64,000 nucleotides of DNA. It comes from Styela clava. Taxonomy: Eukaryota. Made by a program: the position numbers. Below are positions 6,001-27,000 of this stretch, in pieces; position 1 is the first letter of the stretch, and every line of letters begins with the position of its first letter. The stretch is from NCBI RefSeq assembly GCF_964204865.1, contig NC_135255.1, positions 3,534,001-3,598,000 of the forward strand. The letters run 5' to 3'.

Positions 6001-9000
6001 TCAAACATAATTCAAAAAGGCTACGCAAATAATTTTTCATTGTTACATAAACATTTTCGGATATGAATATTTTCAAAGTCATCAACATCCTTACAACGTT
6101 CCATTTAAAAATAACGCGCGCACTTGCGCAAATAAACACAAGTCATTTGATGTATTGTTTTCATACTGTATTGTCCCGAATAACCCGTAATTAGATATGA
6201 AACGTTTTGGAAACGCACGTTGACAAGATAAAAGAAAGTCTATTGCGGGATTTAGAAATGCAATGTACCCCGTTGTTATCGTTAAACCGATTAGGATGCG
6301 TTAATTTAATATAAAATGAGTTGAACTTGAGAAGGAAGACATTCAGTGAAATATTGTTTTCCAACGTACTTGCTCTCTGCAATTTATTATATCATGGAGC
6401 CTAACGTATCAACCTCCAGTTTTTTCAACGACTGTCGTGGAACATCTTTGCGTGGATCTAAGCGATATAAAGCAACAACGATTTGGAATGAGTTACTTAA
6501 CGCATTCCGCGATCGGCTCAATTGTAAGAAACACAGAAGAAATTTAAAGACTTATGACAACTGTTTTACTGGATCGGGAGCCGCTGATGTCATGCATTCA
6601 GTTTTACTTGAAAATGAGAATGTTTCTCAAGATGTAACAAGATCACAGGTAAGAATTATGGTTTTATTTAGAGTACCTGTATTTTTCTGATTGCGTAAGA
6701 TGTTCTTCACCATTGTTCCTAACATAGATTACTATTGAAAACTCCATAGGTTCGAAATGATAGAAACCAGTTCTGTACGAAGTAAGCCATCACTCATCAC
6801 CATTTTCCACCAACATTATACGGTGGAAAATACCTAAGTGCCTGCTTCGTTTTATCGTGCACCAATATAAAACCTTTATGATGTATGCTTTTGAGTAGAA
6901 AGAAACTAAAATTGTAATTTTCGATTCAGGCAATCAAACTGCTTCAAAAGTTTTTATTCGAGCATGTGATTGAAACAATTAATGGGAAATGGGAGAACGA
7001 ACTGTTCACGGACACAAATCGGTTGTACAGGTAAATTAGTTATAAACATTTATTCATTTAATGTGTAATTGCTTGTATTTTTTTTTTTAATTCAAAATTG
7101 TCAGGTTTACCGTTCGTTTTCAATTTTCTATTTCACACGAAGAAAAAATCATTTTGAATGTTGTCTGACTAGTTTCAGTAGTTGCATGTATTAACTTCAG
7201 TAACATGTATTAAATATGTGTGCAGAGCGCCTACATTTGCATTAACCTTTTTTTTTATTATTTAAGGTTATATGGTGAAAATGAAGATACGGAAATCTCT
7301 TCAAGTTCAATTCCTCTTATTAAAAACAAAGTAAGTTTGAAACGACTAGAAGGAAGATTTTTAAATAAATCGAATAATGTAATGGATGAATATACAACAG
7401 TTTTTTATTTTTTATTCAAGATTAAGAAATCCATATGATTTGAGCATTGGTAAAATGGGTATACTGAAACAATATGTTTATATATAAAGCTACACTGCGA
7501 TGAATAAGTCTTGAAGGTGGCATTATGAAGTTTTCCTGACGTGGTATATCGTACATACTTTCTTCAAATGAAGATTATTCATCATTATACTTATTATTTT
7601 TTAATGCAGTTTCCATCAAGACAAATTATTCTTTCGCCGCCAATCTCGAGAAGATTTGCCACCTCACCCAAACAAGAAAAGCCAACCCGATCGAATTGTT
7701 CAATGAAGCTTCTTCCCAGCAAAGGTTGTGAACTGAGATTTATTCCTAAGTGTCTCCTTGCTGTAGTAGACTGAATATTTCTTTTGCTGCTTGATTTAAG
7801 TATATGCGTGTTATGTATCTCGCTAGTTTCGCAAAGTGTTCCATTTTAATGTTAATTGTTGATTCACCATTGTTTTTTTAGTAATTATGTCACTAGTAGC
7901 ATTGTGTTTATTGCAATAAATATATTTGCTAATTCAAATTTGTATGTTATTACGATCATAACGTCATCCGAAACAGGAACCGGTCGATAGCATGGGTTGC
8001 GGCTAAAAAGGAAAGAAATAGGTTTTACTTGTGAGAAATTCACTCTACTCTGTTTTTTTTTATCAGTTATCACTTTAAAATCTATGTAGGTATAGATATG
8101 CTACGTGAAGAGTAAATTTGATATACTGACTCTAAACGTCGATAAGATATAGGGGCACGCGTAGATGTATAATAGTCTAATATCTAATGATGACAGATGA
8201 ATTGCAACATATTAGAATGTCATCAGATATACTGAGATGCCTATTATTACGAAACATAAACAGCGTATATGTTCAACCTATATTATCAATATATTATATT
8301 ATTGTCTACATTAAATTATCACTTCAACAAAAAAATATACAAAACCCCGGTTATCAAATGTCAATTCCAGGTTCACCAGAACTCTCCGAAATGTCATGAC
8401 TGTTGGTAACATAAATTTCCGAACAAAAGTAATTGACATTGCAATTACAGACGTCTTTGTCTGTAGAGATGTACTTCATTCATCATACTTTTTTTTATCA
8501 TATGTTCTATTCCAATAGATATATATTCATATTTGGTAATGCAATGATGTGCTGCTAACAGTCATTGCCGATCGCCAGGTACTTTCTGTTTGTTAATCTA
8601 TTATGGCACACTAAATTCATTTTGTCTCCATTAGTAAGAAGTTTATTGGCGGCGTGTCAGTGAGTGATATACCAAGTGTATGTAACACAAGAATGATCGC
8701 ACACAATTTCGAGAGGCTCAGATGTTGCAATAGTAATAGTTTAATCAATGCAACTGAAAATGACGTCGAACTGCACAAACAGATATATCTTTAGCATGGC
8801 TATTTTCACGTTACTTATACATGTAGCTCAAATGTTTGATGATGTATGGGATACTTGGGACATTGATACAATACCAGAATTCTATTTTTATTCAACAAAT
8901 TAATGCACATGAAAATTTTAACTGATTACATGCAATCTTGCTTATACAGACTAAATTTTGTTACTTTCTCTAGTTTCCGTATTATCAATATCGAGGGCTG

Positions 9001-24000: not shown

Positions 24001-27000
24001 GCAGCCACAATAATTTTAACTCTCACTGCACTAGCTTTTCTTCTTATTTGGGTATTATTTTAAATTTTAAATATCTAGAACAATTCTTCATTGAATTTAG
24101 TTTTTGGTAATAATGAATTCATTACACGAGTGATTCAATGACTGGGGAGTTTTGGGCTTCACGCTGGAACATCGTGCAGAATATGCATTTTAAATTAAAT
24201 ATTTCTTGCAAAAGTGAGTTTCTACAAAACTACATTATAAAGGGTTGTCTTCTGCTGTCTGATAAAATAATCTAAAAACGCATAAATATTATAGTATATA
24301 CTTCTATGACATGGGTATCAAAGACATTTATGTATATATAGATAAGAGGGACCGCGGATAGCTACGATAAGAAATTGATTTAGAATGTGAATTATTTAGT
24401 CATTGACAACATGAAAGCAGTTGCGACCAGGATTGTCATCAAACCACAATTAAATCATTTTTGCAATATTTATCATTAGGTTTGGTTAACTTAAAATCAT
24501 ATAATATTCGGTTCTAATGACCATGAAATTTTCCTAATACAGTATAGTTACCAAATTTCGTTTTATGTTCACACCAAGATCTTCAGCCAAGCGTGACTGC
24601 TTTCCTGATGGTATTGATTCGAACTGGTTCAAGTTTCATGCCAATCAGTATTTGTTGGCCTCATACACAGCCACGAATATATAGTATTATTAGCTCTTAG
24701 AATTGGACTGATCGCCCCTTAATTTGATCAGAAACGAGTTTCCTTTACTTCTGAGTGAGTAGGCGTTGCGTTGCTCCAAGCAAATGCTCTTAAAGTTGAT
24801 TGTTTTGTTTGTTTGCGTTTTTCCAGACACAAAATCAAATTAGGCTAAGCAAATGCAAATGACAATGGTATGTACCAAACATACTTGAAGAGAGAAGTGG
24901 TACAAAATGTGAACTAAATGTAAATTTCACCAGTTATAATTCAATACCTAATTTATTTATTGCCACTATACTCATTATCAAATTTTATTGCATATGTGGA
25001 AAAGAAATTGCTGCGAAAGTCGTCAACCTATTTTTTTTGCAGTTTTTAATCGCATACGCTTTTTTCGGTAGTGGTTTTATTCTGATCCCAGTGAAGTCTT
25101 TTTATATTATTATTAATATTACTCAGTTTAAAGTTACAGAGAGAATGATTATAAATTCATGGTTTTCCGTCCTGAACAGCACGCGTGTACATTCCATTCC
25201 GGACAACTGTGACGGATGTCGACTAATTACCATTATTGTTTCTTAATATTTGCTAAAGTTCTTATGTAAAATAACCTTGAAAGATAAATTGTTCAAGGCT
25301 AAAGGCGTCATTAAAGATGAATATGCCTTAGAGGAGGTTGGATAAATAACCTAATTAATTGACGGAACGTGTATACGCTATCTCAATATTTACTTTAGAA
25401 ATTATTCTCAATTTTATCAATGCGATAATCCACGATTCTATTCCAAGTTCAAACAAACTCTTTACCGCCTTATCACAAATTTAATCAAATCATAAAACAA
25501 CTAAATATTAGAAGTTATATCTCTTTATCGTGTTTTACAAGAGCGAGTGTCTTCTGGGCATTATAAAATGGTCTTGATGGAGATTGTAGTCATTCAGTTA
25601 TTTATTACTCCTTATACTGAGTTGAGTACTTTTTACAACTCTTGAAGAATTAGTAAAGGTTATTGAGAAAGTATTACGAATTCTGGGATTTTCATTTGCA
25701 ACGACTACAGTTATACAAGTAACATCCAAGCAAGGGAAATAAACAAAGAACGAACATTATGGAATGTGGACTAACACTCGCAAGACAATGTTCTTTCAAA
25801 CAAAGCAACGAAAAGTACAGAGCTACAGTCATATGGAAAGATTTAGTCATGTCATTTCGTGCTCGTGTTGTTTGTAAGAAAAAGCGAAGACATTTGAAAA
25901 GTTTTGAAAATTGTTTTTCCGGATCATCAGCCGTAAATAAGCTATTTCAAATTCTGCAAGAAAACGAAAATTTTCCACAAGAAATTACGAAGGAACAGGT
26001 AAATGCTAAATAGTGTCAAACAAAATCCTAACAAAATTGAGTTTAGATTCATCAAAAATAATCACAATAATATATGAATATAGCATTACACTATTAACTA
26101 ACTGTTCCTTATTATTTTAGGCCGTCAAACTTCTGCAAAAGTTTCTTTCGGAACATGTCCTCGAAGCGGTGGATGGTCAGTGGGAAAATGAAACTTTTTC
26201 TGATTCAAGCAAATTATACAGGTATATGTCGTTTCATACATGAATGTATGAACATTAATGATTTTTCTGGAATGAAGTGAATTTCTAAGTGTCTATTACA
26301 TTGACTGTACTTTGTGAATCATGAAGTGATGTAAAGTAGCAGCTAACAGAACTGTCTTTTGCATCACATTGTCCCATTTGTGTCTAAATTTGGAATAATT
26401 TGTAGTATAGACACCAATAATAAACTTAATTACAGAAATATGATGAAAAAAATTGGTTTATTATTTAGATTTACATTGCATTGTTTAACACCACAATTTT
26501 TTTAGATTTGCAGATTGGAAAGATGGATACGCAAATACCACGCCAACAAAGAATAAATATAAGATAAAAAGGCATCACGGAACTGATAAATTAACCAGAA
26601 AAATATTTCGTGGATTGAATTATATCGAAGAAATATCAAGTCCAACAGTTGTAAAAAAAGCTAGAAGATCAGGAGTATTTACAAGAATACATGCAATCAC
26701 TCAAAATGTTAGATAAAGTTCAAGTTAAACACTTTACTATACATCGCGTACATTCAGTTACACAGAATGTGAAAATCAAATCAGTGTGAAAAAATGACTC
26801 GAATAGGAGGAGAAGTCAAAGGATACATCTCAACAATGAATGTACAACAACGGAAACAAACAAACCGAGAAATTTTTCACGTCACGATAAGACAATTATG
26901 ACATAACATACAGGTACTCTTTCAACATGATGTTTCTAAAAACCAGCACGTAAAAACACCGTTCGGACGCATTCAGCCATGAAGAATATATATGGTTTAT

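What the first reader, a model, noticed from the sequence alone, without database searches (positions are those of the whole stretch)
6394..26716. Tandem triplet of DEP-only DEPDC1 derivatives that lack the RhoGAP half
Seen: three same-strand genes (6394, 19331, 25759) with identical first two intron positions and a 101-nt exon 2. Each encodes a DEPDC1-type DEP domain and a short Ser/Thr-Pro, basic tail, then a stop. No RhoGAP-like exons appear anywhere in the window. The copies differ widely in DNA while DEP residues are kept, which suggests purifying selection rather than recent debris. Known: DEPDC1/DEPDC1B and nematode LET-99 combine DEP with a RhoGAP-like region and act in mitosis and spindle positioning. 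Inference: a lineage-specific family of truncated DEP proteins that may compete with or tune the full-length protein during cleavage or germline divisions. This is a candidate undescribed system.
Basis: partly seen in the sequence, partly recalled or inferred. Interest (0 to 1): 0.72.

Follow-up and report, generated by a model that had tools for sequence, protein, structure and literature searches.

The report
Sea-squirt genes encoding DEP-only DEPDC1 offshoots
Three intact genes in this sea-squirt (Styela clava) window each encode only the DEP domain of a DEPDC1-type cell-division protein plus a floppy basic tail, and they belong to a larger, selected, apparently lineage-restricted family that has machine-given names in RefSeq but turned up in none of my literature searches.

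Summary
Three + strand genes start at 6394, 19331 and 25759. Their first two introns sit at the same positions and exon 2 is 101 nt in each. The window is Styela clava: the exon-1 search returned three RefSeq proteins of 194, 183 and 183 aa, the first 100% identical to exon 1 of gene 1. Their sequences match my exon-by-exon reading, stops included.

Each protein is a confident DEPDC1-type DEP fold with a disordered basic tail. No RhoGAP-like sequence lies anywhere in the 64 kb. Synonymous sites are saturated while replacement differences are 0.28-0.31 per site, so the copies are old and constrained.

The triplet is part of a bigger set. At least 10 sequence lineages of short DEP-only models exist in Styela. 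They form one clade inside chordate DEPDC1, apart from DEPDC4/7. A 681-aa DEP+RhoGAP gene lies on the same chromosome.

Function is inferred: a stand-alone DEP module, probably switched by phosphorylation, uncoupled from the pseudo-GAP half. Competition with full-length Depdc1 is untested, and nine DEP positions near-invariant in full-length proteins have changed. My three literature searches on the point returned no papers. I rate it a new variant of a known kind, of moderate interest.

The parts
6394..6648 (+). Gene 1 exon 1: start codon, disordered N-terminus, N-terminal helix (YKATTIWNEL) and first half of the DEP domain; phase-0 GT donor
6930..7030 (+). Gene 1 exon 2, 101 nt: second half of the DEP domain, ends inside the Arg codon of LYR
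7267..7330 (+). Gene 1 exon 3, 64 nt: start of the disordered tail
7610..7774 (+). Gene 1 last exon: tail with LSPPISRRFATSPK and the ...RFIPKCLLAVVD end; stop TGA at 7772-7774
7915..7920 (+). AATAAA 141 nt after the gene 1 stop (candidate poly(A) signal)
19331..19573 (+). Gene 2 exon 1 (243 nt), same layout as gene 1 exon 1
20216..20316 (+). Gene 2 exon 2, 101 nt
20712..20763 (+). Gene 2 exon 3, 52 nt (the script had it one base to the left; these limits are read)
21474..21629 (+). Gene 2 last exon: tail with MSPPTIKRFST and the ...RLIPSCIMAVTD end; stop TAG at 21627-21629
21801..21806 (+). AATAAA 172 nt after the gene 2 stop (candidate poly(A) signal)
25759..25998 (+). Gene 3 exon 1 (240 nt)
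26121..26221 (+). Gene 3 exon 2, 101 nt
26506..26716 (+). Gene 3 last exon (211 nt; the tail is not split by a third intron here): TTPTKNK, SSPTVVKKARRSG; stop TAA at 26714-26716. The first AATAAA follows only at 27875

Best explanation
Shown:
- The window holds three intact, separate protein-coding genes of Styela clava. Each makes a ~21-22 kDa protein with a short disordered N-terminus, a well-folded and basic DEPDC1-type DEP domain (residues ~24-121), and a 66-73-residue disordered basic tail. Then comes a stop.
- They are old duplicates kept by purifying selection.
- They are three members of a family of at least 10 short DEP-only lineages in this species. That family forms a single clade inside chordate DEPDC1.

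Inferred origin: one ancestral copy lost the pseudo-RhoGAP half and then multiplied, mostly on the chromosome that also carries the full-length DEP+RhoGAP gene.

Inferred mechanism: the protein works as a free DEP module. It goes wherever this DEP surface binds, most likely the cell cortex or membrane or a cortical partner, as for LET-99 and other DEP proteins. It cannot carry out whatever the pseudo-GAP half does. Access would be switched by phosphorylation of the tail. Most family members share an S-P...[RK][RK]-hydrophobic-[ST] motif that looks like a basophilic-kinase or 14-3-3-type site, which recalls how PAR-1 and the 14-3-3 protein PAR-5 keep LET-99 off part of the cortex.

Open: whether the net effect is to antagonise full-length Depdc1 by occupying its sites or to serve a diverged partner.
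For: Gene structure and identity:
- Exon-by-exon reading matches the three Styela clava RefSeq proteins found with exon 1 alone.
- All 8 introns have GT...AG (gene 2 exon 3 limits).

Domain:
- Pfam DEP scores 52.8-58.8 bits against a cut-off of 32.7, with no other family above its cut-off.
- The family profile hits PDB 2YSR, the human DEPDC1 DEP domain, at E 2.2e-39.
- In the AlphaFold2 model of gene 1's protein, the ten-residue blocks covering residues 31-120 average pLDDT 88-98. The N-terminus averages 49-54 and the tail 43-64.
- The best PDB fold match is 2YSR, with TM 0.78 on the target and 46% identity.

No GAP half:
- tblastn of 8 full-length relatives found nothing from the RhoGAP-like half in 64 kb.
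- Pfam finds RhoGAP in Styela's 681-aa protein (25.5 bits, cut-off 24.5) and in the Ciona savignyi protein. It finds it in none of the 9 short Styela models scanned.

Selection:
- Over the DEP exons, pS is 0.72-0.90 (saturated) and pN is 0.28-0.31. The one pair with a finite estimate gives dN/dS 0.16.
- Only exons 1 and 2 still align as DNA.
- By base composition, 183 codons stay stop-free with probability 9e-7.

Family:
- In the careful tree of 49 DEP domains, the 15 short rows form one clade (100/99) inside a chordate DEPDC1 clade (99/97). The window's three group together (89/82). Frog DEPDC4 and coral DEPDC7-like proteins lie outside.

Tail motif:
- It is aligned, and [RK][RK][FYMLIV][ST] occurs in 9 of 14 short models.
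- Gene 2 has KRFST, gene 1 has RRFAT and gene 3 has KKARRSG.

Literature (passages read only):
- The isolated DEP domain of DEPDC1B does not rescue zebrafish morphants (PMC4250264).
- LET-99 is cortical, and PAR-1 is thought to create PAR-5 binding sites that inhibit its cortical accumulation (PMC3302746, PMC5576900).
- Ciona Depdc1b is needed for oriented asymmetric division (PMC12705688).
Against: - No expression, localisation or binding data were available, so every functional step is inference.
- Nine DEP positions that are at least 80% conserved in 24 full-length proteins are at 25% or less in 12 short ones: P24, R26, L30, G41, A60, W66, G78, T86 and Q88, in gene 1 numbering. A new conserved Cys44 and a fixed Lys88 appear instead. 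The binding surface may therefore no longer match that of full-length Depdc1.
- The tail motif is imperfect in two of the window's three genes. Per protein it is not rare by chance: for single-hit tails, a shuffled tail carries at least one such motif in 212 to 625 of 2000 shuffles.
- Gene 3 has no AATAAA within 1.1 kb of its stop.
- The base of the chordate clade is a polytomy, so the parent gene and the date of the truncation are unresolved.
- Whether relatives exist in other ascidians is uncertain. The sensitive search lists only its best 150 of 626 hits, from clusters at 50% identity.
Confidence: 0.58

Rival explanations
1. Neofunctionalised DEP adaptors. The short proteins are real and selected, but their DEP surface has diverged. 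They bind other partners and work in a pathway that has nothing to do with full-length Depdc1, spindle orientation or cytokinesis.
For: - Nine positions near-invariant in full-length DEP domains are replaced in the short clade, with a new conserved Cys44 and a fixed Lys88.
- A long stem branch (0.38) leads to the short clade, and its internal branches are long.
- The tail motif of the short family is found in the linker of only 2 of 10 full-length proteins checked. Those linkers instead carry an S/T-Pro 7-8 residues after LYRF in 7 of 10.
Against: - 21 core positions, the N-terminal helix (ATxxWN) and the basic character of the domain are shared with full-length DEPDC1.
- The best sequence and fold match remains the DEPDC1 DEP domain.
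- Nothing here identifies another partner.
Confidence: 0.28
2. Relics or annotation artefacts. These would be partial duplicates of the 5' end of DEPDC1 that happen to keep open frames, are not translated and have no function.
For: - Partial gene duplicates are common.
- Gene 3 lacks a nearby AATAAA.
- The models are computer predictions, and I could not see their transcript support.
Against: - Synonymous sites are saturated while pN is 0.28-0.31.
- All three frames and all 8 introns' GT/AG are intact at a divergence where only exons 1-2 still align.
- Genes 1 and 2 keep a homologous tail and stop at the same aligned place.
- The tail motif is shared across family members.
- By composition, 183 open codons have odds of 9e-7.
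Confidence: 0.05
3. Alternative 5' cassettes. The three DEP exon pairs would be alternative first exons that splice to shared downstream exons (a RhoGAP-like half) outside the window, as in clustered variable-exon genes.
For: All three are on one strand and share intron positions and phases. The window ends 37 kb after gene 3, so distant exons cannot be excluded by sequence alone.
Against: - Each copy has its own tail exons with in-frame stops that RefSeq models use.
- The tails of genes 1 and 2 are conserved up to the stop.
- Unrelated coding sequence lies between and after them: GT25 on the + strand, then CUB/kringle and fibrinogen-type exons.
- No RhoGAP-like match occurs in 64 kb.
- Styela's full-length protein has its own, different DEP domain.
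Confidence: 0.04

Closest known systems
DEPDC1 / DEPDC1B / LET-99 family (N-terminal DEP domain plus C-terminal RhoGAP-like region lacking the catalytic arginine)
   Same: - Same type of DEP domain, with the preceding Y-[KR]-A-T-x-[IL]-W-N helix.
- Best sequence match (2YSR, E 2.2e-39) and best fold match.
- Placed inside the chordate DEPDC1 clade (99/97).
- Basic DEP domain.
   Different: - The whole RhoGAP-like half is missing from the genes and from the window.
- Nine DEP positions near-invariant in full-length members have changed.
- The tail carries a motif that is not typical of the full-length linker.
- There are many paralogues rather than one or two genes.
Styela clava full-length 'DEP domain-containing protein 1B-like' (681 aa, XP_077970093.1) and Ciona Depdc1b
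   Same: Same species and same 24.3-Mb chromosome as the window's genes. The DEP domains are 40-49% identical over exon 1 and 51-54% over exon 2. The Ciona gene is needed for oriented, asymmetric division of cardiopharyngeal progenitors (PMC12705688, passages read).
   Different: It has DEP plus a Pfam RhoGAP match and groups with the Ciona savignyi full-length protein, not with the short clade.
Vertebrate DEPDC4 and DEPDC7
   Same: Related DEP domains. RefSeq names some Styela short models 'DEPDC7-like'.
   Different: In the tree, frog DEPDC4 and coral DEPDC7-like proteins lie outside the DEPDC1 clade that holds the short family. The frog DEPDC4 found here is 514 aa, with a second precomputed Pfam domain listed, so it is not DEP-only. 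That human DEPDC4 is short is my recollection and was not checked.
Experimental isolated DEP domain of DEPDC1B
   Same: Same architecture as an engineered DEP-only fragment.
   Different: That fragment is man-made. It failed to rescue zebrafish depdc1b morphants (PMC4250264, passage read). This shows that a DEP-only protein cannot replace the full-length one, but not what a natural DEP-only protein does.

Membership tests
DEP domain (Pfam PF00610) | Match to the DEP profile above the curated cut-off (32.7 bits) | tested here: met
   The database proteins identical to the window's genes score 53.3, 58.8 and 52.8 bits. Single exons score 18.5-26.6 bits on complementary halves of the profile.
DEP domain (fold) | Winged-helix DEP fold | tested here: met
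   In the AlphaFold2 model, the ten-residue blocks covering residues 31-120 average pLDDT 88-98. Foldseek finds 11 PDB matches at E <= 0.001, all among the DEP-containing structures listed; the top one is 2YSR with TM 0.78.
DEPDC1 subfamily (DEPDC1A/1B/LET-99) | DEP domain of the DEPDC1 type, closer to DEPDC1 than to DEPDC4/7 or other DEP proteins | tested here: met
   The profile hits the DEPDC1 DEP structure at E 2.2e-39, against 2.2e-09 for the next hit, DEPTOR. The short clade sits inside the chordate DEPDC1 clade at 99/97, with DEPDC4 and DEPDC7-like proteins outside.
DEPDC1 subfamily (DEPDC1A/1B/LET-99) | C-terminal RhoGAP-like (pseudo-GAP) region | tested here: not met
   No RhoGAP hit in the three proteins or in 6 other short Styela models. 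No tblastn match of the GAP half of 8 full-length proteins anywhere in the window. They are therefore derivatives of the family, not full members by architecture.
DEPDC4 / DEPDC7 | Grouping with named DEPDC4 or DEPDC7 proteins in a tree of DEP domains | tested here: not met
   Frog DEPDC4 and coral DEPDC7-like proteins group with an oyster protein outside the DEPDC1 clade.
Functional (selected) gene rather than pseudogene | Replacement changes far rarer than silent ones; intact frame and splice sites | tested here: met
   pN 0.28-0.31 against pS 0.72-0.90. Frames and GT/AG are intact.
Functional (selected) gene rather than pseudogene | Transcription and translation | not testable with these tools
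   No RNA-seq, EST or proteome data of Styela clava were within reach. Only the existence of RefSeq models is known.
Phospho-regulated / 14-3-3-regulated cortical protein (LET-99-like regulation) | Phosphorylation of the tail motif and phospho-dependent change of localisation | not testable with these tools
   Only the sequence motif is seen: 9 of 14 short models, aligned.

The most novel reading that the evidence does not exclude
A tunicate-restricted family of ten or more stand-alone DEP proteins, born from one truncated Depdc1 copy, acts as phospho-switchable cortical decoys or tuners. These would set where and when the LET-99/Depdc1-type spindle-orientation machinery can act. That would give ascidians, whose cleavage pattern is invariant and full of oriented and unequal divisions, a graded, multi-gene control layer that other animals lack.
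Probability: 0.12. Interest if true: 0.7.

Novelty: new variant of a known kind. Interest (0 to 1): 0.45.

Why it matters
DEPDC1, DEPDC1B and LET-99 link the cell cycle to the cortex, spindle orientation and cytokinesis. How their DEP domain and their catalytically dead GAP-like half divide the work is unsettled.

Here evolution has done the domain-deletion experiment. It kept the DEP half alone, under selection, in many copies next to an intact full-length gene. The work was done in a chordate whose relative Ciona already shows a Depdc1b division-orientation phenotype.

If the short forms localise or compete as proposed, they would show what the DEP domain does by itself. They would also supply natural inhibitors or reporters for it. 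If they bind something else, they are a clean case of domain-level neofunctionalisation after partial gene duplication.

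Tried and rejected
- Word-based homologue searches were weak. Exon-1 profile against longer proteins gave 3 hits of 790 candidates. The profile of 12 short models gave 6 hits of 6268 candidates. The profile of the two unnamed contig proteins found only themselves, 2 of 195. 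None found a named short relative in another ascidian. Given the tool's need for shared 5-residue words, this is weak evidence of absence.
- Complex prediction with gene 1's DEP domain (residues 20-125 of the database protein) and residues 215-500 of Styela's full-length protein gave no verdict: score 0.16 against a mark of 0.34, and the controls were not run. It is not counted for or against binding.
- I considered and rejected extra DEP copies or pseudo-copies in the window. tblastn of the three proteins finds only the three genes.
- I considered and rejected RhoGAP exons hidden in the window.
- I considered membership of DEPDC4/7. The trees do not support it.
- An alternative acceptor in gene 1 at 7103-7104 would restore the usual L-Y-R-F but runs into a stop after 20 more codons. 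RefSeq does not use it, and I did not pursue it.
- The paper on PAR-5 and LET-99 (PMC4829500) is not held. What I say about it comes from passages in PMC3302746 and PMC5576900.
- A script stopped with an error after 4 of 12 proteins and was rerun with a guard (2 of 12 had no anchor).
- The script had gene 2 exon 3 one base too far left, which is why it printed a wrong donor and acceptor there. The limits given in this report are read.
This report is the same text with that field added.

Not checked:
- Any Styela clava sequence outside the window: positions of the other family members, the gene structure of the full-length gene, and whether the 101-nt exon is ancestral.
- Any transcript data.
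- The closed collections metagenome contigs and viral contigs. Genome contigs (bacteria and archaea) was not used because it cannot hold this organism.
- Supplementary files of papers, which are closed. The datasets of PMC12705688 might list further Ciona Depdc genes.

Full report
**What is there**

The window is AT-rich (about 34% G+C) and has no N. Reading the finding's coordinates shows three + strand genes.

Exon 1 runs 6394-6648, 19331-19573 and 25759-25998. It translates without stops and ends CAG|GT in phase 0. Exon 2 runs 6930-7030, 20216-20316 and 26121-26221. It is 101 nt in all three, is flanked by AG and GT, and encodes 33 residues plus two bases of an Arg codon.

Genes 1 and 2 continue with a short exon (7267-7330; 20712-20763) and a last exon (7610-7774; 21474-21629). 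Gene 3 has a single last exon (26506-26716). Each ends in a stop.

**Whose genes they are**

I searched the model exon by exon and left out the step of joining my exons. A profile of the three exon-1 peptides, searched against longer proteins, returned three proteins of Styela clava. They are 194, 183 and 183 aa long and are named DEP domain-containing protein 1B-like, 1A-like and 1B-like. The first is 100% identical to exon 1 of gene 1.

Their sequences map back onto the exons I had read, at 97-100% identity. The shortfall comes from residues at the exon edges where the alignments run into introns. They map to no other place in the window. So the window is from this ascidian.

**What they encode**

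Single exons hit Pfam DEP on complementary halves of the profile, below the cut-off. The database proteins pass it at 52.8-58.8 bits against 32.7 and match nothing else above a cut-off.

A profile of 12 short Styela models hits the solved DEP domain of human DEPDC1 (2YSR) at E 2.2e-39. The next hit, DEPTOR, is at 2.2e-09.

The AlphaFold2 model of gene 1's protein was built with a 59-row alignment. Its ten-residue blocks covering residues 31-120 average pLDDT 88-98, with helices and strands in the DEP order. The N-terminus averages 49-54 and the tail from residue 121 averages 43-64. Its best PDB match by fold is again 2YSR, with TM 0.78 on the target and 46% identity.

The proteins have calculated pI 9.4-9.9. 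The tails have net charge +3 to +11, 16-23% Ser+Thr and two S/T-Pro each.

**No GAP half**

I ran eight full-length relatives against the window with tblastn: Styela's own 681-aa protein, Ciona savignyi, Phallusia, a fish, a frog, a spider, a hagfish and a frog DEPDC4. Apart from one chance-level match (E 0.85), they match the window only with their first ~125 residues and only at the three genes. Nothing from the RhoGAP-like half appears at E <= 1.

Pfam finds RhoGAP in the 681-aa Styela protein (25.5 bits, cut-off 24.5) and in the Ciona savignyi protein. It finds it in none of the short models.

Between genes 1 and 2 lies an unrelated 653-codon frame with a glycosyltransferase-25 domain. Downstream of gene 3 lie a large Ser-rich frame on the other strand and exons of CUB, kringle and fibrinogen type. 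These neighbours make a shared downstream GAP exon set unlikely.

**Age and constraint**

Counted per exon and summed as numbers (Nei-Gojobori), the DEP-coding exons differ at 72-90% of synonymous sites, which is saturated, but at only 28-31% of replacement sites. The one pair with a finite correction gives dN/dS 0.16.

The tail exons of genes 1 and 2 are looser (pN 0.46, pS 0.78) but still align. They share SPP..[RK]RF.T and the same ending, R-[FL]-I-P-x-C-[IL]-[LM]-A-V-x-D-stop.

At the DNA level only exons 1 and 2 still align, at 70-75% for the longer alignments. Introns, flanks and tail exons do not align at E <= 0.01, except 45 nt of polypyrimidine tract before exon 2 of genes 2 and 3. 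At this composition, 183 codons stay open by chance with probability about 9e-7. These are old, maintained genes, not recent debris.

**The family is larger than a triplet**

The full HMMER scan of 1.84 billion cluster representatives, using the profile of the three proteins, gave 626 hits at E <= 0.001; the best 150 are listed.

The best non-self hits are all Styela clava. They are short models of 302, 199, 249, 210/246, 185/258, 117/204 and 125 aa, named 1A-like, 1B-like, 7-like or uncharacterized, plus the 681-aa full-length protein. With the window's three, that makes 10 clusters at 90% identity and 13-14 distinct models. I cannot tell whether the pairs 210/246 and 185/258 are separate loci.

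Most of these lie on the same 24.3-Mb chromosome as the window and the full-length gene. One locus is on a 25.6-Mb chromosome and one on a 24.9-Mb chromosome.

Two further relatives are proteins from short unnamed contigs (122 and 147 aa). I did not try to identify their source, and a search with them found nothing else.

**Trees**

From 165 proteins I kept the 145 whose DEP match covered at least 80 profile positions and dropped 5 isoforms or near-copies.

- The quick tree of 140 rows puts all the Styela short models and the two unnamed rows in one clade of 15 (SH-aLRT 99). That clade sits inside a 50-row group holding vertebrate DEPDC1A/1B and the tunicate full-length proteins (96).
- A careful tree of 49 rows that I picked by hand gives the short clade 100/99 and the chordate DEPDC1 clade 99/97. 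The rows were the 15 short ones, 6 tunicate full-length proteins, 16 vertebrate rows (hagfish included), 9 rows outside the chordate clade (named ones: a spider and a tick), and 3 DEPDC4/7-type outgroups. The window's three group together (89/82), with genes 1 and 2 as closest (95/39).

The base of the chordate clade is unresolved. The parent gene is therefore unknown: it could be one of the two tunicate full-length lineages that the tree shows, or something older. With only 100 columns, this is as far as the data go.

**Tail motif**

In the alignment of the 12 short models, the only conserved feature after the DEP domain is S-P-[P/S/T]-x-x-[RK]-[RK]-[F/Y/M]-[S/T]. The core [RK][RK][FYMLIV][ST] occurs in 9 of 14 short models and four times in the 302-aa one (0 of 2000 shuffles reach four). 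For single-hit tails it is not rare by chance: a shuffled tail carries at least one such motif in 212 to 625 of 2000 shuffles.

In the window, gene 2 has it (KRFST). Gene 1 has Ala at the acceptor place (RRFAT, followed by TSPK). Gene 3 has KKARRSG.

Among 10 full-length proteins with a usable anchor (2 of 12 had none), only 2 carry the core within 95 residues after the DEP domain. Seven carry an S/T-Pro 7-8 residues after LYRF instead. That the motif resembles basophilic-kinase (PKA or Aurora type) and 14-3-3 sites is my recollection of those consensus sequences, not a test.

**How it most likely works**

What is shown is a folded, basic DEPDC1-type DEP domain, a disordered basic tail, no GAP half, purifying selection, and a single-origin multi-copy family beside an intact full-length gene.

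The following comes from passages I read.
- LET-99 is cortical, and PAR-1 is thought to create binding sites for the 14-3-3 protein PAR-5 that inhibit its cortical accumulation (PMC3302746, PMC5576900).
- Ciona Depdc1b is needed for oriented, asymmetric division (PMC12705688).

My inference is that the short proteins are free DEP modules. They reach the DEP domain's cortical, membrane or protein site without delivering the GAP-like half, and the tail provides a phosphorylation switch.

Whether they compete with full-length Depdc1 is open. 21 core positions are shared with full-length DEP domains. Nine positions that are near-invariant there, including the Trp of the AVDW stretch and the Gly of NFG, are replaced in the short clade. 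A new conserved Cys and a fixed Lys appear. This fits a changed partner at least as well as a decoy.

**Novelty**

My searches for 'Styela clava' with 'DEP domain', for 'Styela' with 'DEPDC1', and for 'ascidian' with 'DEP domain-containing protein' and 'maternal' each returned no paper. A search for DEPDC1 with 'DEP domain', 'truncated' and 'dominant negative' returned two papers whose titles and abstracts are on other subjects. The library lacks most subscription journals, and supplements were closed.

The genes themselves are in RefSeq under automatic names. The DEP domain and the parent family are well known. What is new is the architecture: stand-alone genes without the GAP half, its expansion, and its apparent restriction to this lineage. 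Hence 'new variant of a known kind', of moderate interest. The function is untested, but the system is directly testable in a model-rich group.

**Limits**

- No transcript data and no Styela sequence outside the window were available.
- The one complex prediction gave no verdict (listed under Tried and rejected only).

Noticed in passing
window 11195-13153 (+): A 653-codon stop-free frame, apparently one exon, with a Glycosyltransferase family 25 domain (E 2.7e-34) and weaker Anp1 and GT2-type matches in its N-terminal half. It looks like a collagen galactosyltransferase-like gene. It sits between DEP genes 1 and 2, so the triplet is interrupted.
   Followed up: partly
window 31560-34358 (-): A 932-codon open frame, very rich in Ser/Asn/Glu and internally repetitive (recurring '...INPIP.ES..KD.S.NV...' units), with no Pfam match at E <= 0.001.
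   Followed up: partly
window 361-2028 (-): Exons of a cytosolic-type sulfotransferase (Sulfotransfer_1, E 1.2e-26 for 364-789).
   Followed up: partly
window 44593-49064 (+) and 58202-60705 (+): Exons with CUB (two) and kringle domains. Further on there are exons of a fibrinogen-C-domain gene, preceded by a short collagen-like G-x-y stretch (58.4 kb).
   Followed up: partly
window 22232-24652 (+): Between genes 2 and 3, a non-coding unit of about 1.0-1.5 kb is present twice in tandem. The matching blocks are 77-91% identical with start-to-start spacing of 959-1481 nt.
   Followed up: partly
window 7718-7771 and 21585-21626 (+): Genes 1 and 2 share the same C-terminal ending, R-[FL]-I-P-x-C-[IL]-[LM]-A-V-x-D, then a stop. 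Gene 3 and the other family members lack it, and the model gives it low confidence. Its meaning is unknown. The Cys is seven residues from the end, so it is not a CaaX box.
   Followed up: no
window 7103-7168 (+): An alternative AG acceptor in intron 2 of gene 1 would restore the family's usual L-Y-R-F (RefSeq's model reads L-Y-R-L) but meets a stop after 20 more codons.
   Followed up: partly
proteins P0013/P0015 versus P0018/P0019/P0028/P0034 (not in the window): Tunicate full-length DEPDC1 proteins fall into two groups in the tree. One holds Styela with Ciona savignyi. The other holds Phallusia, Clavelina, Ciona intestinalis and one unnamed row. This suggests two full-length lineages in tunicates. 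A Styela member of the second group was not among the 150 hits listed.
   Followed up: no
window 19720-20189 (+), intron 1 of gene 2: The 642-nt intron holds an imperfect inverted repeat (34-nt arms, 74% complementary, 402 nt apart) around a stretch with repeated GCGCACA motifs. It may be a small inserted element, and would explain why this intron is longer than in genes 1 and 3 (281 and 122 nt).
   Followed up: no
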